DNA of 64,000 nt. It comes from Spirochaetales bacterium (GTDB lineage Bacteria; Spirochaetota; Spirochaetia; Treponematales; Treponemataceae). The stretch is taken from assembly GCA_043775705.1 (NCBI GenBank), contig JAYVSC010000150.1, forward strand, positions 1,031 through 65,030. The letters run 5' to 3'. A program made the position numbers and the translations under genes. The notes below the pieces were generated by a model that had not been told where the DNA came from, made no database searches, and saw only the letters and a program-made list of their open reading frames with translations. Shown here piece after piece: positions 4,983 through 35,289 of the stretch (positions within the stretch are counted from its first letter, which is position 1; every line of letters starts with the position of its first letter).

Positions 4983-5585
4983 TCAGAAATGATAGCGGAC
5001 GGAAAGCACCACATCGAGGATATTTCCTGTGCGGTTGTACATTCCCTCTTTATAAAACTGGGGGAGGACATTCCAGCCCACACTTGCTCCGTAGGACCAG
5101 TCCGGCGAATATTGAAAATAGGCACCGACTTCTGGTTTGATAATCGGACCGAAAAAATTGGTCGTGTTGTAAGTCTGGAAGGCAAAACCTCCCGAAAGCG
5201 AAACGGGAACATGGATCCGGTTAAAGACAAAGGCATAAGTTGCCTTGAAAGTGATGGGAAGATAAAAATAGAGGTTTCCGCCGAGGGTAGAATTGAAGGA
5301 GAATGCTATTTCACCCCCGAGAGCTACCTTGGAATTGATAAAGCGCGAATACCCGATAGTTCCGGTTCCGCCCAGATTGATGTTGGTTTTTGTCTCGATT
5401 CCGTCTGAAGACCCGTTGAAAAGAGGTAATCCTATTCCCAGTCCCATACGTATAAACTGATCGCCCTTGCGGATGGGTTCATACCCGTAATTTGAATCCG
5501 GCTTGACCGGAGTCTCGGTTGTTTGTGCGTTTAAAAAAGATAGTCCCGCTATGGCTAGGACCAGGGTGATAATCTGACGTTTCAT
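4983..5585 (-). CDS. TP0733-like (OmpW/OprG-type) outer-membrane beta-barrel
   Basis: Signal peptide, alternating aromatic/Gly amphipathic strands and a C-terminal VRYHF barrel signal. Divergent from folD as in treponemes. Start chosen at MKRQ. Confidence 0.75.
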   Translation of the reverse strand: MKRQIITLVLAIAGLSFLNAQTTETPVKPDSNYGYEPIRKGDQFIRMGLGIGLPLFNGSSDGIETKTNINLGGTGTIGYSRFINSKVALGGEIAFSFNSTLGGNLYFYLPITFKATYAFVFNRIHVPVSLSGGFAFQTYNTTNFFGPIIKPEVGAYFQYSPDWSYGASVGWNVLPQFYKEGMYNRTGNILDVVLSVRYHF

Positions 5586-5700
5586 AGTTTCACTATACCT
5601 CATTTTTTCTGCTATTGTCTATCAAAGGCAGTACGTGTTACAACAAAGAAAGCCGTCATCTAGTTACGTGCTTGCAGATTAATTCAATTTCGAGGTATAT

Positions 5701-10127: not shown

Positions 10128-11636
10128 TTATTTGATGCGGTCGAAAACAACCGGCGGGGATCCGGCCAGGTTTACTGCTTCGATGGATACGGTCACCTCT
10201 GTCAGGGTTAGAATCTGCTGCTCGCCGGTGGAAACGGCCCTTTTTTCCGTCGATGCCAGATAAAAAACAGATTTTGATTTGGGCTGATCCGGTCTGAACT
10301 GAAGAATCGGCTTGTCCTTTACGGTCATTATCATAAAAAGACCGCTTTCGCTTCCCCCCGAGCCTGTCAGGGTATAGCGGGTATTATTGATCTGGAATTT
10401 TTGTCCGTCCGGGGAACTCCATTCCTTGGTGCTGGATGAGAGCATAGCTTTCAGCTGTACAATGGACTGTTCGGCTTCTGTTTTGGGAAGTACCGTATTG
10501 TTTGCCATTTTTTTATACACCCCGTCCCAATCCGAAGCAACTCCGATTTTCAATTTGACGTCTTCAAGTATTTTGATCCTGATTTCATCGATTCCGGTGA
10601 GTTCAATGTCTATAAGGCGGCGGATGCTCGGAATCGACTGATTCCGGGTGGTTAAATACGCACCATACCGTCTCGGCGCACCTGATTCGCGCAAATATAG
10701 TTCTTCCGTCGAACCGTTGTGAAAAATTATCTCTTTTTCATTCATATTGAAAAAGATGTATTTTGTATCCTTGGTTGAGCTCGATTCCGGCATATACCAG
10801 AGACCGGTCAGAAAATTCTCGAATGTGCTCAAGTCGCCATTCTGCAGCTGGCGGACCAGCTGCGTCTCTATCTTTTTTCCCGCAATGCGGGATTCGGAAA
10901 CCTGCTCGTACCGCTTGACTGTCCTGTCCCAGCGGTAAATTCTCTCTATCTGGTCAAGGGTTTGCGGAGAATCAGGATCCGAATTATAGGTATAGATGGG
11001 ATAACTGTCGCCGCTGGTCAGCCCGAGATTGTAGGCATCGGATCTTTTGATTTCCTGAATGGTGATCGGACCATCCGAACGGAGGTCCGCAACTGCCGTA
11101 AAGCTGATTTTCCCGTCTTTGTTGCTGACCGGCAGATACACCGCAAGAAGTTGGATATTGTCCGCGGTCATCCCGGAATAAATCAATGCATTTGTGCGGT
11201 CGCCGATGATATCCATGGCATAAAAAAGCAGGGTTCTGGACTGGGTTATACCCGTGCGGATACCCGTTATTCGGGTATATTCGCCGGTAAGTGGATTTTG
11301 AATTCCGGGAATCAGGTAGATATTGGGTTCCGATATTTTTTTGACCGCGCAGATCTGGTCAGCGACGTTATCCTTGTTCAGGTCTACGGTGATAGCCTGC
11401 AGAAAGGTTTCATCGCTGTCGAGTACGATCAGCGGCTGTGTTTTGGATTCGTCATAAACTGTGGCATCCTCGGCTGGAAGCACGTTGACCGGAATGGTAT
11501 TTTTCACGATCGGAACGATAGTGCGTACCGATTTCCTTGTTTCCGGTAAAAAAGAAAGGTCGGACCGGCTGAAAGCGAGCCATATAAAAAGGCCCGTCAG
11601 CGCGGCAATAAACACAATAAGAACTGATCGCTTCAT
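10128..11636 (-). CDS. Pallilysin-related (Tp0751-like) membrane-anchored protein
   Basis: N-terminal anchor and a DLNKDNVAD Ca-binding-like loop. Its position between the SPOR gene and the vWA gene matches recalled treponemal synteny. Confidence 0.55.
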   Translation of the reverse strand: MKRSVLIVFIAALTGLFIWLAFSRSDLSFLPETRKSVRTIVPIVKNTIPVNVLPAEDATVYDESKTQPLIVLDSDETFLQAITVDLNKDNVADQICAVKKISEPNIYLIPGIQNPLTGEYTRITGIRTGITQSRTLLFYAMDIIGDRTNALIYSGMTADNIQLLAVYLPVSNKDGKISFTAVADLRSDGPITIQEIKRSDAYNLGLTSGDSYPIYTYNSDPDSPQTLDQIERIYRWDRTVKRYEQVSESRIAGKKIETQLVRQLQNGDLSTFENFLTGLWYMPESSSTKDTKYIFFNMNEKEIIFHNGSTEELYLRESGAPRRYGAYLTTRNQSIPSIRRLIDIELTGIDEIRIKILEDVKLKIGVASDWDGVYKKMANNTVLPKTEAEQSIVQLKAMLSSSTKEWSSPDGQKFQINNTRYTLTGSGGSESGLFMIMTVKDKPILQFRPDQPKSKSVFYLASTEKRAVSTGEQQILTLTEVTVSIEAVNLAGSPPVVFDRIK

Positions 11637-11643
11637 TATAATC

Positions 11644-12531
11644 CTACAAAACTGTCGGTTTTTCCTTTTTTTGCTCCTGTTCTCTTTCTTTTTTGCGTTT
11701 CAAAAAGATGATCAGAACAACAGCTATACAAAAAGAAATGAGAGCTGATATTATCACAATAATCGTAGAAAGGGGTAGCGGGGCTCCCTTTTCCGCCCCT
11801 GATTTACCTGTGGCACCGGCCGTTGATTCTTGTGATGCGGGATTGCCCGTACCTGCGATGGTTACTCCGGTTTCGTCGAGCGCCGTGCTTCCGTCCTCAT
11901 TAATCCCGGTCAGGTCGGCATTTTTGCCGCGTGTTTCTTCTATTGAAGTGAAAAGTTCTTTACTGGTCTTTACCACCCGGTTCTGGATGTTCATATCCAG
12001 CGTAATTTCATACCAGGCATCATGCTGCAGTATCCGGGCTTCCGCGAGGTAGGGGCTGTCAAATTTCTCGGGAGAGCCGGCATAGCGGGAAGTCCACGGC
12101 GCTTCCTGTTTCAGGTCGGTAAGCAGGAGCATGATTTTAAAACGGTCATTTGTGCCGCGTTTGTCCAGCGCCCGCTTGATAGTGTCGAGCGCAAGTCCGA
12201 TATCGGTATATTGACCGTCCGGCTTGATTAAATCGATGGTCTTTATGATTTTCTGCCGGTCACCCTCATTCTGTACCGTAAAAGTCAGCAGATTTTCTGC
12301 TTTTCCGTAAAAATCATACAGGGTAATCCAGTCACCGTCGATCAGTATCTGGCCGATCAGCTGATCGCGTACCCATTGATGCATGCTTTCAAACTTTCCG
12401 CTTTCAGCCATCGACTGGGATTTGTCAATCATCAAAAATATGTCGACGGGGATGGTCCGTTCCCCGGCCGGGAGGGGGCTAAATATGAAAAGGACTAGAA
12501 TTAACGTGATTATATATCTTGTTTTTATCAT
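11644..12531 (-). CDS. vWA-domain membrane protein (TP0750-like)
   Basis: MIDAS elements DKSQS, GQYTD and LLTD. Signal peptide plus a C-terminal TM helix followed by KRKK. Confidence 0.8.
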   Translation of the reverse strand: MIKTRYIITLILVLFIFSPLPAGERTIPVDIFLMIDKSQSMAESGKFESMHQWVRDQLIGQILIDGDWITLYDFYGKAENLLTFTVQNEGDRQKIIKTIDLIKPDGQYTDIGLALDTIKRALDKRGTNDRFKIMLLLTDLKQEAPWTSRYAGSPEKFDSPYLAEARILQHDAWYEITLDMNIQNRVVKTSKELFTSIEETRGKNADLTGINEDGSTALDETGVTIAGTGNPASQESTAGATGKSGAEKGAPLPLSTIIVIISALISFCIAVVLIIFLKRKKEREQEQKKEKPTVL

Positions 12532-12599: not shown

Positions 12600-12627
12600 T
12601 TTACATAATCTTAACTATGTTTATAAT
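12600..12627 (+). promoter_or_regulatory. Probable sigma70 promoter of cfpA
   Basis: TTTACA-16-TATAAT. Confidence 0.55.
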
Positions 12628-12677: not shown

Positions 12678-14756
12678 ATGGGAAGCATAGACCTGCCACG
12701 GAGCCCGAATGTATTTCATCCAGAGAAGCCTAGTGCAGTTGGTTCACGAAACTCGCTTGCGCAGGATTACCGCGATCAGCAAAAAGAAGTAAACCAGCTT
12801 CTTGAAGAAGAAACCAACAAGGTTTTGCATCACTTGAATTCCAAACTTCCCAAGGAAGTTCTCGAACGCCTTGATGTTATGGGCGGAGTCAAGGAAAAAC
12901 TTTACAATTACTTTAACCAGAACTATCAGAATATGTTCAATCGTTACATGGTAACCGCTGAAGATGAAATGGTGAAAAAAGTTCGCGGATTCGTGGATCG
13001 CGAAGAAATGCGTGTTTTGAACCGCTATACCCCGAAAGAAATAGCCACTCTTCTTGACGAAGTAGGCGGAGCTGACAAGTTTAATACCGGTGAAATTGAA
13101 AAATCGATGGTAAATATGTATGGTCACCTTCAGGGCCATATTCAGCGCGGCGTTAATGACCTTGAAACCCTCACCAACTCACTGCTTCGCCAGAAAACTG
13201 ACGTTGGTGCGTTTGTTCGCGGTGAAAATGCTTATTCTATCGTAAAATGCGCATTCAAGGACAATATTTACAAGCCGAAGACCGTTACCGATGTAAAGCT
13301 TTCAGTAAATATCCTTGATGCAGAACTCATCAGCCCGATTTTCCAGTATCAGGCAACAGTTGAATACCTCATCAAAGATCTTCTGTCCAAGCACTATATG
13401 GACGAAATCGATAAAGCCATCGAAAAGATCAAGGACGAACGCATTGATCAGGGTCTTGAAGAAATGTCAGACGGCGAAATCATTTTCGCCCGCATGAACA
13501 AGGTAAAGGAATACGCATCCGACGACGTTGACAATCCCAAGAGCATCCGTTATGGCGTAATTGCCAAGGAACTCATGGAGCGCATCAACAATCTTCGCGC
13601 CGAAATTGATCCTGCTACCTTTGACCAGCTCAATATCCGCGAAAACCTCAAGAAAATCATTGATACCGAAAACATCCGCAACCGAGGATTCAATACCGCT
13701 ATCAATTCGCTTACCTCAATTCTTGATACTTCGAAAATGGGATATCAGTATATTGAAAACCTCAAGAATGCACGCGAGCTCATCCTCCGCGAATATGACG
13801 ATACCGATGCCGCTCATCTTCCGGATGAACGATATCAGATCCGCCTTCGCTACTATGACAACGCGCAGCTGAATGAAGAACGCAAGTCCTATGAAATCAT
13901 GATCCGTTCGTTCGAAACCGAGGTTGAACACCTTTGGGACGTTCTGAACACACGCTACGAGGATTCAAAATTCCTGACCCGCGTTACCGATTTCAATGAC
14001 CTCGCGAGACTCTACAAACGCAAGATCCGCAAGAATTACAAAGAAAAATCCGGTGACCCGGTCTATGAAGACATTGCAAAAGTTTGGGACGAAATTTCGT
14101 TCATCAAACCTGCAGAAACCGAAGTTGAAAAACTGAACAGGACCTTCCTGTTCGAAAAAGACAAGCTCCGCAAGAAAATCATTCTTATGCGAGACAAGCT
14201 CAAGAATATGTATAACTACCAGTATCCGATTGAACGTCGGGTAATGGAAGAACGCCTTACATTCCTTGAGTCCGAATTCAACAAGTTTGATTATATAATC
14301 AACCCTTTCCACCTTCAGCCCGGACTGCTGCTTGATCTTGACATCACCTCGATCAAACGCAAGAAGGCAACGCTTTACGGAATGGCAAACTGCCTGAACG
14401 AATTCCTGCACGGTGTTTCAAAAGGTTTCCAGGACGCGGCATTCGCATCCTTCAGCCGCCGCCGTTCAACTGTTCGTGCCGACATTGCACAGTCTTTCTC
14501 CCTCGACAACAACGAGGAATCAGGCGTTGCAACTCCTCCTCCCGGACGATCTGCCTATCTTGACATGCTGAATGAAGGTTCTGCCCCGGCAGCACTGGAT
14601 GCACCGGTCAAGAAAGCAAGCGCTGCGCCGGCTAAAAAAAGCCGAACCCCAGCGTCTGTTAAGTCTGCCAAAGCTGGCGTTGTTGATTCAGGACGCGGAC
14701 GACGTGGTCGCGCGCCGGTAGCAACAAAGGGCAAAAAGGGCCTCAAAGAGATTTAA
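12678..14756 (+). CDS. cfpA: Cytoplasmic filament protein CfpA with a basic low-complexity C-terminal tail
   Basis: The N-terminus [24 protein letters not shown] is characteristic of treponemal CfpA. ~690 aa with a strong AAGGAG SD. Confidence 0.9.
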
Positions 14757-14781
14757 CGGATTCGGTTTGAATACATGAAAG

Positions 14782-14826
14782 AACCCTCGAAAACAGAAAA
14801 AAAGCTGCGTTTCGGGGGTTTTTTTT
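14782..14826 (+). terminator. Intrinsic terminator after cfpA
   Basis: Imperfect stem AACCC.CGAAA.CAG / CTG..TTTCG.GGGTT followed by a T run. Confidence 0.6.
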
Positions 14827-14877: not shown

Positions 14878-15954
14878 ATGGTAGAGCCGGCTAATTTTTA
14901 TGTCAGTCTGTCTACGCGGGAAGGATTTAACGCTTCCGTACGACACATTAATAAAACTCTCGAATTGCTTGATGCATGTGGTCCTAAAAAAAACATTGCA
15001 GATGAAATCAACAGGCTGCAGAACGAGAAATTATTGGTTTCCGAAGAGGTTCAATCCGCGGTAAATATGCTGCTGGTAGAAAAGGCCGGATACACCACGG
15101 TTTCCAGAAATATCAGCGCTGTCACCACTAATTCGGATTTAATTGTTCAGGAAACTTCCAAATGGAAAGCGGTCGATGTGGTACTCGGCTATCATCATCC
15201 TGATCTTGGTTTTATCGTTCTCAATCCAAAGAATTCCGAAAGCGTAAGCATCATTTCCGGTTTCCGAAAAAACGAACTGGTAATCATATATGCCGGATCC
15301 CAGGATTCAAGTCCTGCATCCCGCACAAATGCACAAGCCGCAATTGTCTGTCTTTTAGATATGCTTGAAGATAGAAAATCAAAGGTTCCCGCATCCCTCC
15401 TTTCCGGTCCGTATTCTTTTATCCAGCCGAAAAAAGCCCTCAAGGCAAAACCGGCTGCCGCTGTTCTTTCAAGAGGAAAAGCCTCAGGAACTTCGAAAAC
15501 ATCCGCCCGTGTCCCGGTATCTTCCCGTTCGGGAACATCCCTTTTCACCAATCATGAAACGCCCGCATCCGTTCCTGCCGCCCCTGCGGCTGCTGCACAG
15601 CCCGCGGCGGTTATTCCCGGTCAATCAAAACTGACTCCCCTTATTTCCGTCATTGTCTCTAATGAATTGTTCCATAACGGAAACGTCGAAGCCTGGAAAC
15701 GCATAATCCGTAGCTTTAACGCCAAATATCCCAATCTGCAGGTATCGATCTATTATGACGGGGAACGGATCATTGATATCAATACCCTGTTCAAGTGGGG
15801 CAAGGTAAAACACGGAAGCTGCATTCAGTTCCGCGTGGCAGGCGACAACATTCAGGATCTGGCAAAACTTTCCAGGTATTTCAAACAGGGCGCAAGCTCA
15901 CAGTATGAGGCGTTCCTGCACGGCTCTCCCGATACTGTTATGAATCTCTTCTAG
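14878..15954 (+). CDS. Conserved treponemal protein (TP0747-like) with a K/A/P/S linker and a C-terminal HPr-like domain
   Basis: GAGGAGG SD. Residues ~254-345 align by eye to HPr (see findings). Confidence 0.7.
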   Translation: MVEPANFYVSLSTREGFNASVRHINKTLELLDACGPKKNIADEINRLQNEKLLVSEEVQSAVNMLLVEKAGYTTVSRNISAVTTNSDLIVQETSKWKAVDVVLGYHHPDLGFIVLNPKNSESVSIISGFRKNELVIIYAGSQDSSPASRTNAQAAIVCLLDMLEDRKSKVPASLLSGPYSFIQPKKALKAKPAAAVLSRGKASGTSKTSARVPVSSRSGTSLFTNHETPASVPAAPAAAAQPAAVIPGQSKLTPLISVIVSNELFHNGNVEAWKRIIRSFNAKYPNLQVSIYYDGERIIDINTLFKWGKVKHGSCIQFRVAGDNIQDLAKLSRYFKQGASSQYEAFLHGSPDTVMNLF

Positions 15955-15964
15955 GAGTGAATGC

Positions 15965-18900
15965 ATGAAAAGTACTAATGCGATACATTTTTTTACCCAG
16001 AAAGAAACGGTCAATAAAAAAATTGATAAAAATCTGCTTGGTATCCGCGGACGTCAGGCAAACGAGTTCGCCGAACTCGGACTGCCGATTCTTCCCGGAT
16101 TTATTATCGACTCAACTTTGGCACCGGTTCTTGAAGAAGAATCCGTATATCCGCTTGTCCTGCCGTTTCTTAAAAAATGTAGCGAACTGGTAGGGAAGTC
16201 CTATGGTTCGCAGGACAATCCGCTTCTTGTAAAGATTGTTATTTCACCCAATCTTGCGATAGCAAACTATCCGACGCTTCACAACTTCGGTTTGACCAAA
16301 ACAACAATCACCGGATTCGAGAAAAATGTCGGGCAAAATTTCGCTGCTCATGAAGTACTGTTTCTGCTCAATGGTATCCTTTCAATCGAGAGGCAGTGTG
16401 CGGAGCTTGAAGAAAAGGCCGCCGATATTACTGCATTGACGGAGGCCTTGAAGGAAATCTCGGTAACGATACAGAGCGGGAAGGATATTCCCAGCGGCAT
16501 CGACATCATGAACCGGTATGCAGCACTGCTTCCCGCAGGTTTTTTTGATACCGCAGAACAGCAGCTGGAAATTTCCCTCAAGGAGATCAGCCGTCTTCTC
16601 AAGCTTGATGACCAGAATGACGCAGATACAGCGATCCTTGTTCAGCCGATGGTTTACGGAAATTACGGAAAGGGATCCTGTGCAGGATCATTTTTCAGCC
16701 GGAATATCGTAAGCGGCGAGAAAAAACTTCAGGGCAAGTTTTTTGAAGAAAAGTTTGACGACATCAACGCGGTCGGAAAGGATATTAATTCCATTGATCC
16801 CGTTTCCCTGAAAAAGCTTCAACAGATCGCCTGGATGCTGGAAGATGACAGCAAGGATATCAGACAAATTCGGTTCACCATCGAAAATGGTCGGCTGTGG
16901 CTTATCGAACAGAAATCTGTCGTATCGAAAAGCACTATCTCCCTTATTCAGCTTTTGCTCGACCTGAACAAACGAAAAATAGTCAGTGATTCCTACGTGG
17001 TGAAAACAATCAAACCCGGAATCCTGAACGAGATTCTGCACCCTGTCCTTGATCTTTCCAGCATCAAGGAATTTAAAAAATCCTCCGGCGGTATTACCGG
17101 CGCTCCGGGCGCTGCGGTCGGACGGGTGTATTTCAATGTTGACACGCTTATCGATGCACAGCGCATTGCCAGGCAGAATGGCGAAGATACCCGCGGCATC
17201 CTTGTAATGGCCGCAACCTATGCCGGCGACGTGAAAGGAATCGAAGTAGCGACTGGCGTTTTGTCAAATGAAGGCGGCTATTCGGCTCATGCATCGGTAG
17301 TTGCACGTCAGTACGGCAAGATCTCTCTGGTTAGACCTGACATGGTGATCCGGGGTAAAAAAGCTACTCTCGGCGGACTGACTATCAATGAGGGCGATTT
17401 TATTACGCTTAACGTTCCTTACTATGGAGAATCGACTGTATTTCTCGGAAAGGCTTCATTGATCGAACCTGATCCTGAAACATCCGGGCTGCTCGAGTTT
17501 ATCAGGATAACCCGTTCTTTCGTTCAGAATTTTCATGTGCGTGCGAATGCTGACAGTCCCCGTGATGCCCAGCTTGCGCTGCAGTTCGGCGCAGAGGGCA
17601 TAGGACTTTGCCGGACTGAGCATATGTTTTTTAATGAAAAACGCATCAATGTCTTCCGCGAAATGATTCTGTCGGAGGATATGACCGAACGGAAAAAGGT
17701 ACTTAAAAAACTGCAGAAAATGCAGAGTGAGGACTTTTACGGCATCCTCAAGGTGATGGGTGAACGCGAAGTGACGATCCGTCTTCTGGATGCGCCTCTG
17801 CATGAATTCCTCCCTCACAATGCTACAGAACTTGACGGATTTATTGCGCACCTGGCGGCGAAGACATCTGCCAAGATCAACAAGGCTGAGGTTCTCGAAA
17901 AAATCAATGCCCTATCCGAAATTAATCCCATGCTTGGACACCGCGGCTGCCGTATTGCAATTTCATATCCAGAAATCTACGAAATGCAGGTTCGCGCGCT
18001 TTTTGAGGCAGCCTATCAGCTTCAAAAAGAAAAACTCTCCGTGCATCCGGAAATCATGGTGCCCATCGTGATGAACTACCGGGAACTGAAGCAGATTGTG
18101 TATGGCAAGAAAATAGAAGGACACACCTATCAGGGTATTGTATCGATCGCAGAATCTGTCCGTGAGGAGCTTGGAGCCAAAGCGCTCGATTACAAGATCG
18201 GAACCATGATCGAGCTTCCTGCCGCGGCCCTCAGCGCAGGTGAAATAGCCCGATATGCCCAGTTTTTCTCGTTCGGCACGAATGATCTGACCCAGACAAC
18301 CCTCGGGCTTTCGCGCGATGACTTCAATTCTTTCATGCCCGATTACACCATGTATGACTTGATCGACGGGAACCCTTTCGCGGTCCTCGATCCCCGTGTG
18401 CGTGAACTAATTGATATTGCCGTCAAGCGCGGTACTGCCGCCCGTCCCGACCTGTCGAAGGGTCTGTGCGGAGAGCATGGAGCCAGACCAGAAAACATCC
18501 GCTTCTGCATGGAAGCCGGTCTCGATTATGTGTCGTGCTCCTCGTATTCGGTTCCTATCGCACTTCTTTCTATCGCACAGCTTGAGCTGGAGAAAGCGGA
18601 GAAAGAAGGCAGGGTACTCGTTCAGAAGACTTTAAAAGATGCATCCCCGGCAAAGGCCGATAAACCGGTCCAAGCCGCAAAAACCGCGTCAGCAAAGTCT
18701 TCAAAAAGCGTCCCGGCGAAATCCGCTGCAAAGAAACCGGCAGCAGCCGCAAAACCGGTAGTGAAGAAGGCCGCTTCTGCAAAACCGGTAGTTTCTAAAA
18801 AACCTGCTGCAGTAAAAAAACCGGCAGCTCCCAAGAAACCTGCTGCGGCAAAACTGCCAGTCAAGAAGGCATCCGCGAAAAAACCGGCAGCAACGGTCAA

Positions 18901-18979
18901 ATCTGCTAAGCCTGCAGCGAGCAAAAAAGGGGCAAAGCCGGATACAGTAAAAAAACCGGCAGCCAAGGGTAAAAAATGA
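15965..18979 (+). CDS. ppdK: Pyruvate phosphate dikinase-like protein with a degenerate ATP-grasp domain and a KPAA-repeat tail
   Basis: Phospho-His motif GGYSAHASVVAR and PEP-domain motifs GLCRTEHM, NPMLGHRG, GTMIELP, GTNDL and LCGEHG. The last ~120 aa are K/A/P-rich. Confidence 0.85.
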   Translation: MKSTNAIHFFTQKETVNKKIDKNLLGIRGRQANEFAELGLPILPGFIIDSTLAPVLEEESVYPLVLPFLKKCSELVGKSYGSQDNPLLVKIVISPNLAIANYPTLHNFGLTKTTITGFEKNVGQNFAAHEVLFLLNGILSIERQCAELEEKAADITALTEALKEISVTIQSGKDIPSGIDIMNRYAALLPAGFFDTAEQQLEISLKEISRLLKLDDQNDADTAILVQPMVYGNYGKGSCAGSFFSRNIVSGEKKLQGKFFEEKFDDINAVGKDINSIDPVSLKKLQQIAWMLEDDSKDIRQIRFTIENGRLWLIEQKSVVSKSTISLIQLLLDLNKRKIVSDSYVVKTIKPGILNEILHPVLDLSSIKEFKKSSGGITGAPGAAVGRVYFNVDTLIDAQRIARQNGEDTRGILVMAATYAGDVKGIEVATGVLSNEGGYSAHASVVARQYGKISLVRPDMVIRGKKATLGGLTINEGDFITLNVPYYGESTVFLGKASLIEPDPETSGLLEFIRITRSFVQNFHVRANADSPRDAQLALQFGAEGIGLCRTEHMFFNEKRINVFREMILSEDMTERKKVLKKLQKMQSEDFYGILKVMGEREVTIRLLDAPLHEFLPHNATELDGFIAHLAAKTSAKINKAEVLEKINALSEINPMLGHRGCRIAISYPEIYEMQVRALFEAAYQLQKEKLSVHPEIMVPIVMNYRELKQIVYGKKIEGHTYQGIVSIAESVREELGAKALDYKIGTMIELPAAALSAGEIARYAQFFSFGTNDLTQTTLGLSRDDFNSFMPDYTMYDLIDGNPFAVLDPRVRELIDIAVKRGTAARPDLSKGLCGEHGARPENIRFCMEAGLDYVSCSSYSVPIALLSIAQLELEKAEKEGRVLVQKTLKDASPAKADKPVQAAKTASAKSSKSVPAKSAAKKPAAAAKPVVKKAASAKPVVSKKPAAVKKPAAPKKPAAAKLPVKKASAKKPAATVKSAKPAASKKGAKPDTVKKPAAKGKK
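18700..18976 (+). repeat. Degenerate repeats encoding seven KPAA motifs (histone H1/AlgP-like)
   Basis: Recurrent aaaccggcagc / aaacctgctgc DNA units. Seven KPAA counted in the translation. Confidence 0.85.
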
Positions 18980-19015: not shown

Positions 19016-19046
19016 AGCCGGTCCGATCCAGGACCGGCTTTTTTAT
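19016..19046 (+). terminator. Intrinsic terminator after the ppdK-like gene
   Basis: AGCCGGTCC-gatcca-GGACCGGCT followed by T's. Confidence 0.85.
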
Positions 19047-19104
19047 TTTTGTACGGCGGGAATAGTACCCTCATCTGGCTGCCCGGGGGATGAGTATTCC
19101 TGCG

Positions 19105-19142: not shown

Positions 19143-20945
19143 ATGACAGCAAATGAACTCCGCTCCAAATACGTAGAATTTTTTAAGAGTAAGGGACATT
19201 CCGAGATTTCCGGCAAGTCGCTGATTCCGGAAAACGATCCGACAGTTCTTTTCACCACCGCGGGAATGCATCCTCTTGTTCCCTATTTAATGGGGGAAGA
19301 ACACCCGGCCGGTAAGAGGCTGACGAATTATCAAAAATGCATCCGCACGGGAGATATCGATTCCGTTGGCGACCCGAGTCATTTGACCTGTTTTGAAATG
19401 CTTGGAAACTGGTCTCTCGGGGATTATTTCAAGAAAGAAGCCATCAATTTCAGCTTTGAATTTCTGACCAGCCCGAAGTATCTCAATATTCCTCTGGATA
19501 AGCTTTCGGTCACTGTATTCGCCGGCGACGCTGATGTTCCCCGCGATGAGGAATCCGCAGGCGTGTGGAACGGGCTTGGCATACCAACCGAACGCATTCA
19601 TTTTCTGCCGCGCGAGGATAACTGGTGGGGCCCTGCCGGTGAGACCGGTCCCTGCGGCCCCGACACCGAGATGTTCATAGATACCGGAAAGACTGCTTGC
19701 GGGCCTGATTGCCGACCCGGCTGCCGGTGCGGGAAATACATTGAAATATGGAATGACGTTTTCATGCAGTACAGCAAGCAGAAAGACGGTACCTACCTGA
19801 AGCTTGACCGCACTTGTGTCGATACCGGAATGGGAATCGAGCGCACCGTAGCTATGCTCCAGGGAAAAAAATCCGTATACGAAACTGAAATTTTCAAGCC
19901 GATAATCGCCAGTGTAGAAGCGCTGACCGGAAAAAAATACGGTACCAATGAAGCCGATGATATGTCCATCCGCATCATATGCGACCATGCCCGTGCCTCA
20001 TCCTTTATTCTCGGAGACGCAAAAGGGGTAACTCCCTCCAACGTCGGAGCGGGTTATGTGCTCCGACGCCTGATCCGCCGCGCGGTCCGTCACGGGCGTA
20101 AGCTCGGCATCGACGGCCTCTTTCTCTCGATACCCGCCCAGGTGGTGATCGACATGTTCAAGGGACCCTATCCCGAGCTTGGCGAAAAAGCCGCTTTTAT
20201 CATCGCCGAACTGAAGGCAGAAGAGCAGAATTTCCTTGAAACCCTTAAAAAGGGCGAGGCCGAATTCGAGAAAATGCTTCCGAACCTCCTGAAGAATCCG
20301 CAGCGGACAATGGCCGGACGGCTTGCATTCAAACTTTATGATACGTATGGTTTTCCCATCGAGCTTACCGAGGAACTTGCCCGCGAAGGCGGATTGACGG
20401 TTAACCGCGAGGAATTCGACGAAGCCTTCAAAAAGCACCAGGAATTGTCGAGAGCCGGCAATGAACAGGTATTCAAGGGCGGTCTTGCCGACCACTCTGA
20501 AGAAACCACCGCTTATCATACCGCGACCCATCTTCTACAGAAAGCCCTGAAAATGGTACTTGGGGAACATGTCGCGCAAAAGGGTTCGAATATAACTGCG
20601 GAACGAATGCGGTTCGATTTTGCCCATACAGAACCGATGACACCGGCACAAATAGCCGAGGTGGAACGGATCGTGAATGAACAAATCAAGGCTGATCTGA
20701 CCGTAAAAATGGAAATGATGAACCTCGAAGAAGCGAAAAAAAGCGGTGCGATGGCCCTTTTCGGCGAAAAATACGAGAATACCGTCAAGGTGTATTCAAT
20801 CGGTGATTTTTCAAAAGAAGTATGCGGCGGACCTCATGTGGAAAAAACCGGCGGAATGGGAATATTCAAAATTCAAAAGGAACAGTCTTCTTCAGCTGGA
20901 GTCCGGCGTATCAGGGCTATCCTCGAGAAAACTGTCAGCGCGTAA
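19143..20945 (+). CDS. alaS: Alanine--tRNA ligase (short form without the C-Ala domain)
   Basis: LFTTAGM, FEMLGNWS, DTGMGIER, IICDHAR, LYDTYGFP and editing motifs HTATH and CGGPHV. 600 aa. Confidence 0.96.
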   Translation: MTANELRSKYVEFFKSKGHSEISGKSLIPENDPTVLFTTAGMHPLVPYLMGEEHPAGKRLTNYQKCIRTGDIDSVGDPSHLTCFEMLGNWSLGDYFKKEAINFSFEFLTSPKYLNIPLDKLSVTVFAGDADVPRDEESAGVWNGLGIPTERIHFLPREDNWWGPAGETGPCGPDTEMFIDTGKTACGPDCRPGCRCGKYIEIWNDVFMQYSKQKDGTYLKLDRTCVDTGMGIERTVAMLQGKKSVYETEIFKPIIASVEALTGKKYGTNEADDMSIRIICDHARASSFILGDAKGVTPSNVGAGYVLRRLIRRAVRHGRKLGIDGLFLSIPAQVVIDMFKGPYPELGEKAAFIIAELKAEEQNFLETLKKGEAEFEKMLPNLLKNPQRTMAGRLAFKLYDTYGFPIELTEELAREGGLTVNREEFDEAFKKHQELSRAGNEQVFKGGLADHSEETTAYHTATHLLQKALKMVLGEHVAQKGSNITAERMRFDFAHTEPMTPAQIAEVERIVNEQIKADLTVKMEMMNLEEAKKSGAMALFGEKYENTVKVYSIGDFSKEVCGGPHVEKTGGMGIFKIQKEQSSSAGVRRIRAILEKTVSA

Positions 20946-26545: not shown

Positions 26546-27889
26546 ATGAGCATATTATCCAAAGCTGACATTATTCTTCTGGTAAAGGAAAATGATGTCC
26601 AGTTTATCCGTCTTCAGTTTACCGATTTATTCGGACAATTAAAAAATGTCGCAATTACGCCGAGTCAGCTGGATAAATGCCTTGATAATAAGTGCATGAT
26701 TGACGGATCTTCCATCGAAGGGTTTGTCCGCATTGAAGAATCAGATATGTACCTGCATCCCGATCTGGATACTTTCGTTGTGCTTCCCTGGAGGCCTCAG
26801 CAGGGAAAGGTTGCACGCTTTATCTGCGATGTGCATATGCCTGACGGAAGTCCGTTCGAGGGTTCTCCTCGCTATATTCTGAAGCGGCAATTGGACAGGG
26901 TCAGAGATATGGGTTACATTTTCAATGTAGGGCCCGAGCTCGAATTCTTTCTTTTTCAGACAAATGATAAGGGTGACCCGACGACGGAAACCCATGACAA
27001 TGCGGGCTATTTTGACTTGGGTCCCACCGATATGGGAGAGAATGCGCGCCGTGAAATGGTGCTGGTTCTTGAACAGATGGGTTTTGAGGTTGAGGCTTCC
27101 CATCATGAAGTCGCGCCAGGCCAGCACGAGATAGATTTCCGCTTTGATGACGCCCTTACCACAGCGGACCGGGTAATGACCTTCAAGCTGGTCGTCAAGA
27201 CGATAGCCCAGAGACACGGCCTGCACGCAACCTTTATGCCCAAACCGATTTCCGGGATTAACGGCTCGGGTATGCATACGAATATGTCCTTGATGAAAAT
27301 CAATGACAAAGGAAACACGAATGTGTTCTGCGATGAAAAAGACCCATTGGGATTGAGTTTGCTCGCGCGCCAATTTATTGCCGGCGTCCTCGCGCACATG
27401 AAGGGGATTACCGCAATTACGAATCCTACCGTGAACTCATATAAAAGGCTCGTTCCCGGTTTCGAAGCGCCAGTCTATATTGCCTGGTCGCCTTCAAACC
27501 GGAGCCCGCTGATCCGCATACCGGCGGCCCGGGGTAAATCGACGAGGGTGGAGTTGCGGAGTCCCGATCCAACCTGCAATCCATATCTTTCATTCGCGAT
27601 TATTCTCGCCGCTGGTTTGGATGGAATCGAAAAGAAAATGGTTCCGCCTTCGACGGTAGAGCAGAATATCTTCCTGATGACCGCGGAAGAGCGCACTTCG
27701 CAGGGTATTTTCAGTTTACCCGGAAGCCTTGAAGAGGCGCTGGGATTTTTTAAGATCAACCCGCTGGCTAAAGACGTGCTCGGCGCGCATGTTTTTCCCA
27801 GGTTTATCGAGGCAAAGGAGAAGGAGTGGGATGAATTCCGCACCAAGGTTACCCCGTGGGAGCTGGATTCATACCTGACCAAATATTGA
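26546..27889 (+). CDS. glnA: Glutamine synthetase type I (GSI-alpha, Firmicutes-like)
   Basis: [46 protein letters not shown] and RVELRSPD motifs. Confidence 0.97.
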
Positions 27890-27890
27890 C

Positions 27891-28463
27891 ATGAAAAGTG
27901 TAATCATAGCTTTTTCAAATCCTTTGCTCACCAATTGGGTATCCACGGTTTTGCTCCGCGGGGGCTACTCGATCGAGTACTCCTGCAAAACCGGCGCCGA
28001 TGTCGCCCGCGTCGCCGATTTCTGCACCAGTCCTGTCGTGGTATGCGGATTTCAGTTTCCGGACATGACCGCCGAGGACCTCACGGAACTCCTGAACGGT
28101 CAGCTTGCGATGATTACAGTGGTACTGCCCCATCAGCGGGATTTGATCGAAAGCGATGACCTGGTCGTAGTCCCTTATCCGCTGAGTTCCATGGAACTGC
28201 TGCAGGCGATTGAACTGGTCGAGAACACCGCGGCCCGGCGTGCCGTGACTGTCAGCTCCTCGCCCAGGGAAATAGGCTTTCATTCAAGGGAGCGGCCAGC
28301 CGAGGAAAAGCTTTTGATTATAAAGGCAAAGAATATGCTGATGGATCAATTTGAAATGACCGAGTCCCAGGCCCACCGGTTTCTGCAGAAATCGAGCATG
28401 GACCGGGGATTGAAGCTGATAGACGCGGCAAATATGGTTATTGAACAATCTTTGGGCTTATAG
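27891..28463 (+). CDS. Pseudo-receiver plus ANTAR antiterminator (NitR/NasT-like)
   Basis: C-terminal IIKAKNMLM...TESQAHRFLQKSSMD ANTAR pattern. The receiver Asp site reads VVCGFQFPD. Confidence 0.88.
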   Translation: MKSVIIAFSNPLLTNWVSTVLLRGGYSIEYSCKTGADVARVADFCTSPVVVCGFQFPDMTAEDLTELLNGQLAMITVVLPHQRDLIESDDLVVVPYPLSSMELLQAIELVENTAARRAVTVSSSPREIGFHSRERPAEEKLLIIKAKNMLMDQFEMTESQAHRFLQKSSMDRGLKLIDAANMVIEQSLGL

Positions 28464-28485
28464 GTATATCGATACGGAGGTGCAT

Positions 28486-28824
28486 ATGAAAAAGCTGGAA
28501 GTTATCATCCGACCGGAGAAGCTTGAAATCGTCAAGAACATTCTTAACGACTCAGGCGCATCCGGCATGATGGTTACGAACATCATGGGATTCGGAAATC
28601 AAAAGGGGATTACACATATCTACCGTGGTACCGAATACACAGTTAATTTATTGCCGAAACTCAAGGTCGAGACGGTCGTGGCTGATGACAAGAAACAGAG
28701 AATTGTAGACGAACTGTGCAAACAGGTCGCGACGGGAGCGCACGGTGACGGAAAGATATTCATATATGACGTTGAGGATGCGGTACGTATCCGCACGGGA
28801 GAGAACGGCAACATAGCATTGTAA
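28486..28824 (+). CDS. glnB: P-II nitrogen regulator
   Basis: IIRPEKL, GFGNQKG, T-loop YRGTEY, GDGKIF and RIRTGE motifs. GGAGG SD. Confidence 0.93.
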   Translation: MKKLEVIIRPEKLEIVKNILNDSGASGMMVTNIMGFGNQKGITHIYRGTEYTVNLLPKLKVETVVADDKKQRIVDELCKQVATGAHGDGKIFIYDVEDAVRIRTGENGNIAL

Positions 28825-28836
28825 TGTTTGTATGCT

Positions 28837-28901
28837 TCACCTTCAAAGGGGATTGGTGATGGGCGTGGTAACGCGCTCATGGTACCAGTTCCCTTTTTTT
28901 T
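28837..28901 (+). terminator. Leader terminator upstream of amtB with an overlapping ANTAR-type hairpin
   Basis: Stem 28848-28893 plus T8. The alternative hairpin TCACCTTC-AAAGGG-GATTGGTGA sequesters its 5' arm. Confidence 0.75.
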
Positions 28902-28923
28902 ATTTCTCATCGACTGGAGGTTT

Positions 28924-35266: not shown

Positions 35267-35289
35267 TACCTGCAATGATAGCACACGCG

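What the first reader, a model, noticed from the sequence alone, without database searches (positions are those of the whole stretch)
14878..18979. PPDK-derived Enzyme-I-like protein paired with an HPr-like acceptor: a candidate undescribed phosphorelay beside cfpA
Seen: the 'PPDK' keeps its phospho-His (GGYSAH442, codon 17288) and the PEP-domain motifs (GLCRTEH, TIRLLD, MIELP, GTND, LCGEH). Its ATP-grasp catalytic positions are all changed. Against C. symbiosum PPDK by eye, K22 is R28, R92 is V92, D321 is Q301, E323 is R303, Q335 is E315 and R337 is K317. The upstream gene, separated by a 10-nt gap, ends in a domain that tracks HPr element by element: ISVIVSNELF-H266 (His15 equivalent, codon 15673), QVSIYYDG, T303-LFKW (cf. 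E. coli S46-LFKL) and HGSCIQFRVAGDN (cf. QGTVVTISAEGED). Established: PPDK's His and PEP domains are homologous to PTS Enzyme I, and those N-domain residues are needed for ATP/Pi chemistry. Inference: the protein runs PEP to His442 to His266 of the partner rather than acting as a dikinase, giving a PEP-sensing relay possibly tied to the CfpA filaments. Arg17/Pro18 of HPr are not conserved (HNGN), so the acceptor is atypical.
Basis: partly seen in the sequence, partly recalled or inferred. Interest (0 to 1): 0.88.

Follow-up and report, generated by a model that had tools for sequence, protein, structure and literature searches.

The report
PPDK-derived phosphotransfer pair beside cfpA
Treponemes, including the syphilis agent, carry next to their cytoplasmic-filament gene a conserved gene pair: a "pyruvate phosphate dikinase" that keeps its PEP and histidine chemistry but has lost its ATP site, and a partner built from two HPr-like domains, which together look like an undescribed PEP-driven phosphorelay rather than a glycolytic enzyme.

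Summary
All three ORFs, every quoted motif and all six ATP-grasp substitutions are present as described.

- **Conservation of the substitutions.** They hold in 74 orthologues (R22 74/74, V92 72/74, R323 74/74, E335 72/74). His442 and the PEP-site residues stay intact.
- **Known species.** T. pallidum TP0746 and T. denticola TDE0844 belong to this clade.
- **Partner C-terminal domain.** It models confidently (pLDDT 93). Its best PDB fold matches are HPr, at weak E-values. Near-invariant His266 sits at the N-cap of helix 1, as His15 does in HPr.
- **New here.** The partner's N-terminal domain also has an HPr-type fold, without the His. In the two assessable lineages where the partner lost His266, the neighbouring enzyme lost PEP-site residues, and in one also its catalytic His.
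- **Gene order.** cfpA, partner and PPDK-like lie in that order in 71 of 80 species loci, every locus whose contig reaches all three genes but one.
- **Not supported.** T303 does not correspond to HPr Ser46.

A PEP → His442 → His266 relay is the best reading (about 0.45). It is untested biochemically. No description was found in the literature searched.

The parts
12600..12627 (+). sigma-70-like promoter candidate upstream of cfpA (TTTACA-16-TATAAT, 11 of 12 matches)
   Evidence: This is a consensus match only.
12678..14756 (+). cfpA, cytoplasmic filament protein A (692 aa), with a K/A/P-rich C-terminal extension
   Evidence: NCBIfam NF040882 cfpA_ASD scores 1217.9 bits against a cut-off of 500. 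It lies upstream of the pair in 71 of 80 related loci.
14777..14826 (+). stable hairpin followed by a run of eight U between cfpA and the partner gene; terminator- or attenuator-like
   Evidence: Fold energy is -22.4 kcal/mol, z = -3.3, and none of 200 shuffles folds as well. Sequence read. The pattern scan missed it because of its long apical part.
14878..15954 (+). partner gene (358 aa), orthologue of T. pallidum TP0747 and T. denticola TDE0843; precomputed Pfam PF27497 'TP_0747_N'
14878..15387 (+). partner N-terminal domain (residues 1-170): three helices followed by a beta-alpha-beta-beta-alpha-beta-alpha core (residues about 72-165) with an HPr-type fold; no His at the His15-equivalent position (N85)
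   Evidence: AF2 pLDDT 88.4, pTM 0.81. Foldseek's top seven PDB hits are HPr, with probability 0.96-1.00 and TM on target 0.55-0.70. No profile-level similarity to HPr or to the C-terminal domain.
15433..15627 (+). low-complexity A/K/P/S-rich linker (residues about 186-250), variable in length and sequence among orthologues
   Evidence: alignment A1
15628..15951 (+). partner C-terminal HPr-fold domain (residues 251-358) with the near-invariant motifs V-x-NELFHNGNVEAWK and LFKWGKVK-x-G
   Evidence: AF2 pLDDT 93, pTM 0.87. Foldseek's top hits are HPr or Crh. hhalign against HPr gives P 3.5e-5 and probability 72%. Conservation table.
15673..15675 (+). codon of His266, the candidate phospho-acceptor, at the N-cap of helix 1 (helix spans residues 267-283)
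   Evidence: Model residue 22 directly precedes helix 23-39. H in 79 of 82 representatives. Replaced only where the neighbouring enzyme is degenerate.
15952..15967 (+). junction TAGGAGTGAATGCATG: the partner's stop codon overlaps an AGGAG ribosome-binding site for the PPDK-like gene, suggesting translational coupling
   Evidence: T. pallidum has the same arrangement, TAGGAGTGCACAATG.
15965..18979 (+). PPDK-like gene (1004 aa), orthologue of TP0746 and TDE0844; named 'putative PEP-binding protein' in current NCBI annotation
15965..16984 (+). remodelled ATP-grasp-like N-domain (residues 1-340): R28, V92, no Gly-rich loop, Q301, R303, E315, K317. It is retained and conserved (mean pairwise identity 57%) but no longer PPDK_N-like.
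17090..17434 (+). swivelling phospho-histidine domain (residues 376-490); the catalytic His442 codon is at 17288-17290
   Evidence: PF00391 scores 32.8 bits. His is present in 74 of 74 orthologues.
17522..18589 (+). PEP/pyruvate-binding TIM-barrel domain (residues 520-875) with R550, R606, E750, N773, D774 and C835 intact
   Evidence: PF02896 scores 242.6 bits. All these residues are intact in every complete orthologue whose partner keeps His266.
18590..18976 (+). Lys/Ala/Pro-rich histone-H1-like tail (residues 876-1004); variable among orthologues and short in T. pallidum
   Evidence: Translation. PF07382 hits on some homologues. T. pallidum sequence.
19016..19049 (+). intrinsic-terminator-like hairpin (9 bp, 7 G-C pairs) plus T-run, directly after the PPDK-like gene

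Best explanation
The two genes downstream of cfpA encode a PEP-driven protein phosphotransfer module derived from pyruvate phosphate dikinase.

- **Step 1 (inferred from intact residues).** The 1004-aa protein binds PEP in its unchanged C-terminal barrel and phosphorylates its swivelling His442, releasing pyruvate.
- **Step 2 (inferred from the substitutions).** It cannot carry out the ATP/AMP-PPi half-reaction. The nucleotide and phosphate site of the N-terminal ATP-grasp domain has been rebuilt: K22R, R92V, Gly-loop lost, E323R, Q335E. The rebuilt site is itself conserved, so it probably serves as a docking and transfer site.
- **Step 3 (inference; the central untested step).** P~His442 passes the phosphoryl group to His266. 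That residue sits at the N-cap of helix 1 of the HPr-fold C-terminal domain of the translationally coupled partner, as Enzyme I does with HPr.
- **Step 4 (speculative).** The partner's N-terminal, His-less HPr-fold domain and flexible linker connect the module to another component. CfpA filaments are the obvious candidate given the conserved gene order. In that case PEP supply would be reported to, or consumed at, the filament.
For: 1. Catalytic His and PEP-site residues are intact, while the ATP-grasp key residues are replaced. PPDK_N scores 15 bits against a cut-off of 27, and TIGR01828 scores 631 against 843.
2. The replacements are fixed in 74 orthologues, and the N-domain is still conserved at 57% mean pairwise identity. 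This indicates selection for a new role rather than decay.
3. The partner C-domain has pLDDT 93. Its secondary-structure order is that of HPr. Foldseek's top hits are HPr or Crh (probability 0.97-0.99, TM on target up to 0.64). hhalign against HPr gives P 3.5e-5.
4. His266 directly precedes helix 1 and is present in 79 of 82 representatives. The most conserved stretches (260-280 and 304-313) are the His loop with helix 1, and helix 2 with its loop. From memory, that is the face HPr uses to meet its partners.
5. Co-loss. In L083 the partner has H266Q, and the enzyme has His->Y, R561K, ND->DN and C831L. In L085 the partner has H266S, and the enzyme has R561K and ND->SN. Both also lose the clade-specific R303/E315. 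All 72 complete loci with partner His266 keep every catalytic residue.
6. The partner and PPDK-like genes are adjacent in 78 of 80 species loci. The gap is 10 nt with an RBS overlapping the stop codon, and T. pallidum has the same arrangement.
7. The pair stays adjacent where cfpA is not next to it (L085).
8. TDE0842-0844 move together in T. denticola arrays (PMC3914990).
9. Precedent: in rifampin phosphotransferase a swivelling-His enzyme works against an HPr-like subdomain (PMC4844700).
Against: - There is no biochemical evidence of any kind.
- Fold matches have E about 1e-2, and none reaches 1e-3. No HPr sequence-family hit was found.
- Helix 1 is five residues longer than in HPr, so spatial equivalence of His266 and His15 is not shown.
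- HPr Arg17 and Pro18 are absent.
- The whole C-domain is extremely conserved, so conservation of His266 is not specific to it.
- The enzyme lacks the helical HPr-binding subdomain of Enzyme I.
- Several changes are conservative (K->R, R->K). E315 could still hold a metal. In RPH, mutating the Mg-binding Glu left the enzyme active. Residual or altered nucleotide chemistry therefore cannot be excluded.
- T. pallidum is thought to need this protein for bulk PEP-to-pyruvate flux. A purely regulatory relay would not supply that flux.
- Co-loss rests on two lineages, both on long branches.
Confidence: 0.45

Rival explanations
1. The protein is still a metabolic PEP/pyruvate enzyme, but with a changed co-substrate at the rebuilt N-domain. 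Candidates are phosphoryl transfer from P~His to Pi (making PPi), to another nucleotide, or to water. The partner would be a regulatory or scaffolding subunit that is not phosphorylated on His266.
For: - The N-domain is retained at full length and conserved, with new invariant residues R28, R303 and E315.
- The field assigns T. pallidum's PEP-to-pyruvate step to this protein.
- T. pallidum is reported to rely on PPi-dependent phosphofructokinase (PMC12097511), so a PPi-linked variant would make physiological sense.
- In RPH, loss of the Mg-binding Glu was tolerated.
Against: - It does not explain why an HPr-fold domain with a His at the helix-1 N-cap is translationally coupled to the enzyme.
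- It does not explain why that His is lost only where the enzyme's catalytic residues are lost.
- The loop and Arg residues that hold phosphate or PPi in PPDK are the ones that are missing.
Confidence: 0.25
2. It is an ordinary pyruvate phosphate dikinase with a divergent but functional ATP-grasp domain. The upstream gene is an unrelated filament-associated protein.
For: - Full-length homology to PPDK over residues 18-874, at 631 bits to TIGR01828.
- The best PDB hits are PPDKs, with E about 1e-146 to 1e-139.
- K22R and R337K are conservative changes.
- Older annotations and the T. pallidum literature call it PPDK.
Against: - The score is below the curated cut-offs of both TIGR01828 and Pfam PPDK_N.
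- R92V, R135L/G, loss of the Gly-rich loop and E323R are non-conservative. They affect positions that are identical in the C. symbiosum and maize enzymes.
- No clade member carries a precomputed PPDK_N hit.
- Current NCBI naming is 'putative PEP-binding protein'.
Confidence: 0.08
3. The pair is mainly structural. Both proteins would be accessory components of the CfpA filament ribbon, with the enzyme fold reused as a scaffold. The conserved His residues would serve binding or stability rather than phosphotransfer.
For: - Gene order with cfpA is conserved.
- All three proteins of the window carry K/A/P-rich low-complexity segments.
- In L083 the operon persists although every catalytic residue is gone, so a non-catalytic role exists at least there.
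Against: - In 72 of 72 complete loci all seven catalytic residues of the His and PEP sites are invariant. This holds at sequence divergence down to about 57% identity. A pure scaffold would not be expected to keep them.
- The pair occurs without an adjacent cfpA in L085 and L059.
Confidence: 0.12

Closest known systems
PTS Enzyme I with HPr (and the nitrogen-PTS pair EI-Ntr with NPr)
   Same: Both have a PEP-binding barrel and a phospho-His domain homologous to those here (TIGR01417 hit of 107.8 bits). The proposed acceptor is a small domain with the HPr fold and a His at the N-cap of helix 1. Both are regulatory relays that can exist without sugar permeases.
   Different: The enzyme lacks the helical HPr-binding subdomain of EI and instead keeps a full, rebuilt ATP-grasp domain. 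The carrier is not a member of the HPr sequence family and lacks Arg17 and Pro18. It is the C-terminal domain of a 358-aa protein that has a second, His-less HPr-fold domain. The module is genetically attached to a cytoskeletal filament gene.
Pyruvate phosphate dikinase (C. symbiosum, maize; TIGR01828)
   Same: It is clearly the evolutionary parent. The three-domain architecture is collinear over about 860 residues, and the catalytic His and the PEP-site residues R561, R617, E745, N768, D769 and C831 are kept.
   Different: The ATP/Pi-site residues K22, R92, D321, E323, Q335 and R337 and the 98-104 loop are changed, and parts of the N-domain are deleted. It scores below the family cut-offs. 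It has an obligate gene neighbour with an HPr fold.
Rifampin phosphotransferase (RPH)
   Same: It is another derivative of the PEP synthase and PPDK lineage. Its swivelling His domain delivers phosphate to a new acceptor site, which includes an HPr-like subdomain (PMC4844700).
   Different: RPH keeps a working ATP-grasp domain and has lost the PEP domain. Here the reverse holds. The RPH acceptor is a small molecule, and its HPr-like part is fused to the enzyme rather than being a separate protein.
Incomplete treponemal PTS (HPr, HprK, EIIA-Ntr; Gonzalez et al. 2005, cited in PMC2937029)
   Same: Same organisms. It is a PEP- or ATP-dependent His/Ser phosphorelay with regulatory rather than transport function.
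   Different: Those are canonical family members encoded elsewhere, and none is in this window. Whether the PPDK-like protein can also charge the canonical HPr was not tested. From memory, the T. pallidum ptsI gene is a pseudogene.

Membership tests
Pyruvate phosphate dikinase (TIGR01828, EC 2.7.9.1) | Whole-protein score at or above the curated equivalog cut-off | tested here: not met
   631.2 bits against a cut-off of 843.45
Pyruvate phosphate dikinase (TIGR01828, EC 2.7.9.1) | N-terminal AMP/ATP-binding domain recognisable as Pfam PPDK_N | tested here: not met
   15.1 bits against a cut-off of 27. None of about 240 clade members carries a precomputed PF01326 hit.
Pyruvate phosphate dikinase (TIGR01828, EC 2.7.9.1) | ATP/Pi-site residues K22, R92, the G101 loop, D321, E323, Q335 and R337 (C. 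symbiosum numbering) | tested here: not met
   R, V, loop lost, Q, R, E and K in the window. The same pattern is seen in 74 orthologues and in T. pallidum.
Pyruvate phosphate dikinase (TIGR01828, EC 2.7.9.1) | Catalytic His455 and the PEP/pyruvate-site residues R561, R617, E745, N768, D769 and C831 | tested here: met
   H442, R550, R606, E750, N773, D774 and C835 are present.
Pyruvate phosphate dikinase (TIGR01828, EC 2.7.9.1) | ATP + Pi + pyruvate <-> AMP + PPi + PEP activity | not testable with these tools
   Needs an enzyme assay. No published assay of a treponemal protein was found.
PTS Enzyme I (TIGR01417) | Whole-protein score at or above the cut-off, and the helical HPr-binding subdomain (PEP-utilisers_N) | tested here: not met
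   107.8 bits against a cut-off of 341.7. No PEP-utilisers_N hit in Pfam.
PTS Enzyme I (TIGR01417) | PEP-dependent phosphorylation of an HPr-type carrier | not testable with these tools
   Supported only indirectly, by co-loss of the partner His and the enzyme's catalytic residues.
HPr (Pfam PF00381 PTS-HPr), partner C-terminal domain | Open-faced beta-alpha-beta-beta-alpha-beta-alpha sandwich | tested here: met
   The model has pLDDT 93 with the elements in that order. Foldseek's top hits are HPr or Crh, with TM on target 0.5-0.64 and probability up to 0.99, but E only about 1e-2.
HPr (Pfam PF00381 PTS-HPr), partner C-terminal domain | Sequence-family membership | tested here: inconclusive
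   No Pfam hit at E <= 0.1. The family profile finds no HPr chain in the PDB. hhalign against a 7-sequence HPr profile gives probability 72% and P 3.5e-5 over beta2 to alpha3 only.
HPr (Pfam PF00381 PTS-HPr), partner C-terminal domain | Active-site His at the N-cap of helix 1 | tested here: met
   H266 is model residue 22, and the helix spans 23-39. H in 79 of 82 representatives. Spatial superposition on His15 was not computed.
HPr (Pfam PF00381 PTS-HPr), partner C-terminal domain | Conserved Arg17 (and Pro18) after the His; Ser46 regulatory site | tested here: not met
   The sequence after the His is HNGN. hhalign places D300, not T303, at the Ser46 position. Position 303 is S/T/A, with 34, 24 and 21 of 82.
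HPr fold, partner N-terminal domain | HPr-type fold, with or without the active His | tested here: met
   pLDDT 88. Foldseek's top seven hits are HPr, with probability 0.96-1.00 and TM on target 0.55-0.70. There is no His at the equivalent position and no profile similarity, so the resemblance is at fold level only.
Pfam PF27497 (TP_0747_N) | Hit to the family model | tested here: met
   Precomputed hit on the window protein and on all listed homologues, and on T. pallidum TP0747. The model is absent from the local Pfam copy.

The most novel reading that the evidence does not exclude
Spirochaetes of the Treponema lineage possess a third kind of PEP:protein phosphotransferase system. Its 'Enzyme I' arose independently from pyruvate phosphate dikinase by converting the ATP-grasp site into a protein-docking and transfer site. 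Its carrier is a tandem HPr-fold protein that reports PEP availability to, or consumes PEP at, the CfpA cytoplasmic filament ribbon. As a corollary, T. pallidum has no true PPDK, and its PEP-to-pyruvate and ATP bookkeeping needs revision.
Probability: 0.35. Interest if true: 0.9.

Novelty: new variant of a known kind. Interest (0 to 1): 0.8.

Why it matters
**Metabolism of the syphilis agent.** TP0746 is treated in the T. pallidum literature as the ATP-yielding glycolytic PPDK (PMC10013896). The sequence evidence here indicates that its nucleotide and pyrophosphate site is gone. That bears on energy-yield estimates and on any metabolic model that counts TP0746 as an ATP-yielding PPDK.

**Function of the cytoplasmic filaments.** What the treponemal filaments do remains poorly understood. 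A conserved enzymatic module encoded beside cfpA in over 500 species genomes gives a concrete, testable handle.

**Evolution of phosphorelays.** It would show a second evolutionary route from the PPDK and PEP-synthase scaffold to a protein-phosphorylating enzyme, parallel to Enzyme I. It would also add a new functional family of HPr-fold domains.

Every step can be tested with ordinary biochemistry and with T. denticola genetics.

Tried and rejected
- **Sequence searches of the partner.** Searches against Pfam, NCBIfam and PDB sequences gave nothing meaningful. The weak RxLR-effector hit covers an all-helical repeat and was dismissed as spurious.
- **CfpA-partner fusion.** P0380 looked like a Rosetta-stone link. 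It is an artefact of a spliced, eukaryote-style gene model on a frameshifted contig: the locus does not translate to the query, and the ORFs are separate.
- **Internal duplication in the partner.** hhalign between the N- and C-domains, and between the N-domain and HPr, was not significant.
- **T303 as Ser46.** Rejected.
- **Second PPDK or pyruvate kinase.** The window itself holds no such gene and no PTS gene.
- **RNA evidence for co-transcription.** The window occurs only in sediment-metagenome DNA runs.
- **N-domain-only partner representatives.** These are fragments or frameshifted products and give no information.
- **Primary mutagenesis paper.** The paper on the PPDK ATP-grasp site (Ye et al. 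2001) is not held. The roles of R92, D321, E323, Q335 and R337 therefore rest on my memory of that work. For K22 there is also the statement in PMC4844700.

Full report
**What is in the sequence.** The region holds three same-strand ORFs:
- cfpA, 12678-14756 (692 aa). NCBIfam cfpA_ASD scores 1217.9 bits.
- A 358-aa ORF, 14878-15954, here called the partner.
- A 1004-aa PPDK-like ORF, 15965-18979.

Signals around them:
- The partner's TAG stop overlaps an AGGAG ribosome-binding site 10 nt before the next ATG.
- A promoter-like site precedes cfpA at 12600-12627, and a strong terminator-like hairpin follows the PPDK-like gene at 19016-19039.
- Between cfpA and the partner lies a stable hairpin plus a U-run at 14777-14826 (-22.4 kcal/mol, z = -3.3). 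cfpA may therefore be partly insulated from the two downstream genes.
- Upstream, on the other strand, are a VWA-domain gene and a pallilysin-domain gene.

This is the arrangement of T. pallidum TP0751-TP0746. The window comes from a sediment metagenome. Its nearest relatives are uncultured Treponematales.

**The PPDK-like protein.** HMMER aligns it over its whole core to solved PPDKs, with E = 9e-146 for maize and 2.5e-139 for C. symbiosum. In addition, the 98-104 loop SMPGMMD becomes AIAN-YP.

Family scores split by domain:

| Model | Score (bits) | Cut-off (bits) |
|---|---|---|
| PEP-utilizers_C | 242.6 | 22.8 |
| PEP-utilizers (His domain) | 32.8 | 23.1 |
| PPDK_N | 15.1 | 27 |
| TIGR01828 equivalog | 631 | 843 |

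The catalytic His (H442) and the PEP/pyruvate-site residues R550, R606, E750, N773, D774 and C835 are all present.

Across 74 orthologues taken from species-representative genomes the pattern is fixed: R at position 22 in 74/74, V at 92 in 72/74, R at 323 in 74/74, E at 335 in 72/74, and the catalytic His in 74/74. Within the clade the N-domain is less conserved than the His and PEP domains (57% against 72-73% mean pairwise identity). It is still clearly under constraint, with 22% of its columns at 95% conservation or more. The ATP-grasp domain has therefore been rebuilt and kept, not abandoned.

The roles of R92, D321, E323, Q335 and R337 in ATP/Pi chemistry rest on my memory of McGuire et al. 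1998 and Ye et al. 2001, which are not held. K22's contact with the gamma-phosphate is stated in PMC4844700. That paper also shows that removing the Mg-binding Glu of the related RPH did not kill it. 'Dead' is therefore a strong inference, not a certainty.

**The same protein in known treponemes.**
- T. pallidum P0390 (901 aa, TP0746) carries R22, V92, R323, E335 and K337, and the same deletions.
- So do the T. denticola, T. phagedenis, T. vincentii, T. pedis and Brucepastera proteins.
- None of the roughly 240 listed homologues has a precomputed PPDK_N hit. Current NCBI naming is often 'putative PEP-binding protein'.
- The T. pallidum literature nevertheless treats TP0746 as the enzyme converting PEP, AMP and PPi to pyruvate and ATP (PMC10013896).

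**The partner.** It belongs to a family restricted to spirochaetes. There are 174 representatives at the 50% identity level, and relatives occur in at least 548 species genomes. The precomputed Pfam family is PF27497, 'TP_0747_N'. It has three parts:
- a moderately conserved N-domain (about residues 1-185);
- a variable A/K/P/S-rich linker;
- an extremely conserved C-domain (residues 251-358).

*C-terminal domain.* With a 61-sequence alignment it models at pLDDT 93 and pTM 0.87. Its elements run beta, alpha, beta, beta, alpha, beta, alpha, plus one extra short helix. Foldseek against the PDB returns HPr or Crh for most of the top 50 hits. Probabilities reach 0.99 and TM on the target is 0.5-0.64. 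The E-values are only about 1e-2, and none passes 1e-3. A profile search of PDB sequences finds no HPr.

His266 is the residue immediately before helix 1 (model residue 22; helix 23-39). It follows beta1 after a six-residue loop, the same topology as His15 in HPr. Helix 1 is five residues longer than in HPr, so exact spatial equivalence is not shown.

H266 is present in 79 of 82 diverse representatives. Position 303 is S/T/A (34/24/21), and hhalign places D300 at the Ser46 position. The proposed Ser46 equivalence therefore fails. The two most conserved stretches are 260-280 (end of beta1, the His, helix 1) and 304-313 (helix 2 and the WGKVK loop). From memory, that corresponds to the face HPr presents to its partners.

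*N-terminal domain.* It models at pLDDT 88. It consists of three helices and then another beta-alpha-beta-beta-alpha-beta-alpha unit. Its top seven PDB matches are again HPr, with probability 0.96-1.00 and TM on target 0.55-0.70. There is no His at the equivalent position and no profile-level similarity to HPr or to the C-domain. The partner is thus a tandem of two HPr-fold domains, only one of which carries the candidate active His.

**Linkage.** cfpA, the partner and the PPDK-like gene lie in that order in 71 of the 80 best species loci. In eight others the contig ends before one of the genes, and one locus (L059) is rearranged. T. pallidum has the same order with a 9-nt gap. In T. denticola, TDE0842, TDE0843 and TDE0844 change together in co-culture arrays.

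The most informative result concerns the three representatives whose partner lacks His266. I fetched their loci:

| Locus | Partner position 266 | Changes in the adjacent PPDK-like protein |
|---|---|---|
| L083 | Q | catalytic His->Tyr, R561->K, N768-D769->D-N, C831->L; clade-specific N-domain residues also changed |
| L085 | S | R561->K, N768-D769->S-N; R303/E315 replaced; His retained; no cfpA adjacent |
| L084 | N | contig ends before the catalytic domains |

By contrast, all 72 complete loci whose partner keeps His266 keep all seven catalytic residues. In both degenerate partners the WGKVK motif has decayed as well. The two partners belong to different subgroups of the family, so the losses look independent. 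The sample is small, and both lie on long branches.

**Interpretation.** The pattern has four elements:
- an enzyme that can still take phosphate from PEP onto a swivelling His;
- an ATP/PPi site converted into something else that is itself conserved;
- a translationally coupled HPr-fold domain with a near-invariant His at the helix N-cap;
- decay of all of these together.

I put this at about 0.45. The rebuilt ATP-grasp cleft is the natural docking site, because it is where the swivelling His domain already delivers its phosphate in PPDK. That placement is an inference.

What happens after His266 is unknown. The His-less N-terminal HPr-fold domain, the flexible linker and the gene order suggest an interaction with CfpA. 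The only apparent fusion supporting this turned out to be an annotation artefact.

The main rival (0.25) is a metabolic enzyme with a new small-molecule acceptor and a non-phosphorylated partner. An ordinary PPDK (0.08) and a purely structural pair (0.12) are less likely. The L083 case shows that a non-catalytic role can persist.

A tension remains for T. pallidum. If this protein carries bulk PEP-to-pyruvate flux, the phosphate must be passed on rapidly to an abundant acceptor. Alternatively, another route must exist. From memory, PEP carboxykinase plus oxaloacetate decarboxylase is a candidate; this was not checked.

**Comparison with known systems and novelty.** The protein works like Enzyme I with HPr but is a member of neither family (see the membership rows). 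It descends from PPDK. It parallels rifampin phosphotransferase, where a swivelling-His enzyme acquired a new acceptor site that includes an HPr-like subdomain. Literature searches on cfpA, TP0746/TP0747, TDE0843/TDE0844 and treponemal PTS found no description of the degenerate ATP site, the HPr-fold partner or a relay. Database curators have evidently noticed that the protein fails the PPDK model and have created domain families named after TP_0747. I classify it as a new variant of a known kind (a PEP-dependent His phosphorelay), unproven biochemically, with interest 0.8.

Noticed in passing
window 18590-18976; also 14505-14753 and 15433-15627: All three proteins of the cluster carry Lys/Ala/Pro-rich low-complexity segments. 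The PPDK-like protein has a 129-aa histone-H1-like tail, and some homologues hit Pfam PF07382. CfpA has a C-terminal extension, and the partner has its linker. The tail is short in T. pallidum. These segments might bind nucleic acid or filaments.
   Followed up: partly
window 14777-14826: A stable hairpin with flanking A- and U-runs lies between cfpA and the partner gene (-22.4 kcal/mol, z = -3.3). It looks like a bidirectional or attenuating terminator. It could set a high cfpA to low enzyme expression ratio.
   Followed up: partly
window 10128-12531 (- strand): A pallilysin-domain gene and a VWA-domain gene lie divergently upstream of cfpA. This is the same arrangement as T. pallidum TP0751/TP0750, yet here it is in a free-living sediment treponeme.
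   Followed up: partly
L085 5714-9345 (Logan SRR31444216): The partner and PPDK-like pair occurs without an adjacent cfpA, next to an Apyc1-like metallo-beta-lactamase-fold gene. Both proteins are degenerate at their candidate active sites.
   Followed up: partly
L086 7001-14467 (GCA_016746295.1): A spirochaete contig inside an assembly annotated with spliced gene models yields artificial 'CfpA + TP_0747_N' and 'PEP-utilizers_C + CfpA_C' fusion proteins in the protein databases. The locus also seems to hold two cfpA copies and several frameshifts.
   Followed up: partly
window 32288-35284 (- strand): A 998-aa ORF with no Pfam hit at E <= 1e-5 lies next to recG. The ORFs at 3913-4962 and 4983-5603 likewise have no hits.
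   Followed up: no
window 45430-48554 (- strand): Two adjacent genes encode cyclic-nucleotide-binding domains fused to GGDEF. The first also has a DHH domain. A response-regulator-GGDEF gene lies at 53718-54962.
   Followed up: no
window 26546-30525: A nitrogen cluster: glutamine synthetase, an ANTAR-domain regulator and an ammonium transporter.
   Followed up: no
window 19143-20945: The alanyl-tRNA synthetase is only 600 aa. It has the catalytic and second additional domains but lacks the usual long C-terminal part. It follows the PPDK-like gene only in the closest relatives (L001-L019).
   Followed up: no
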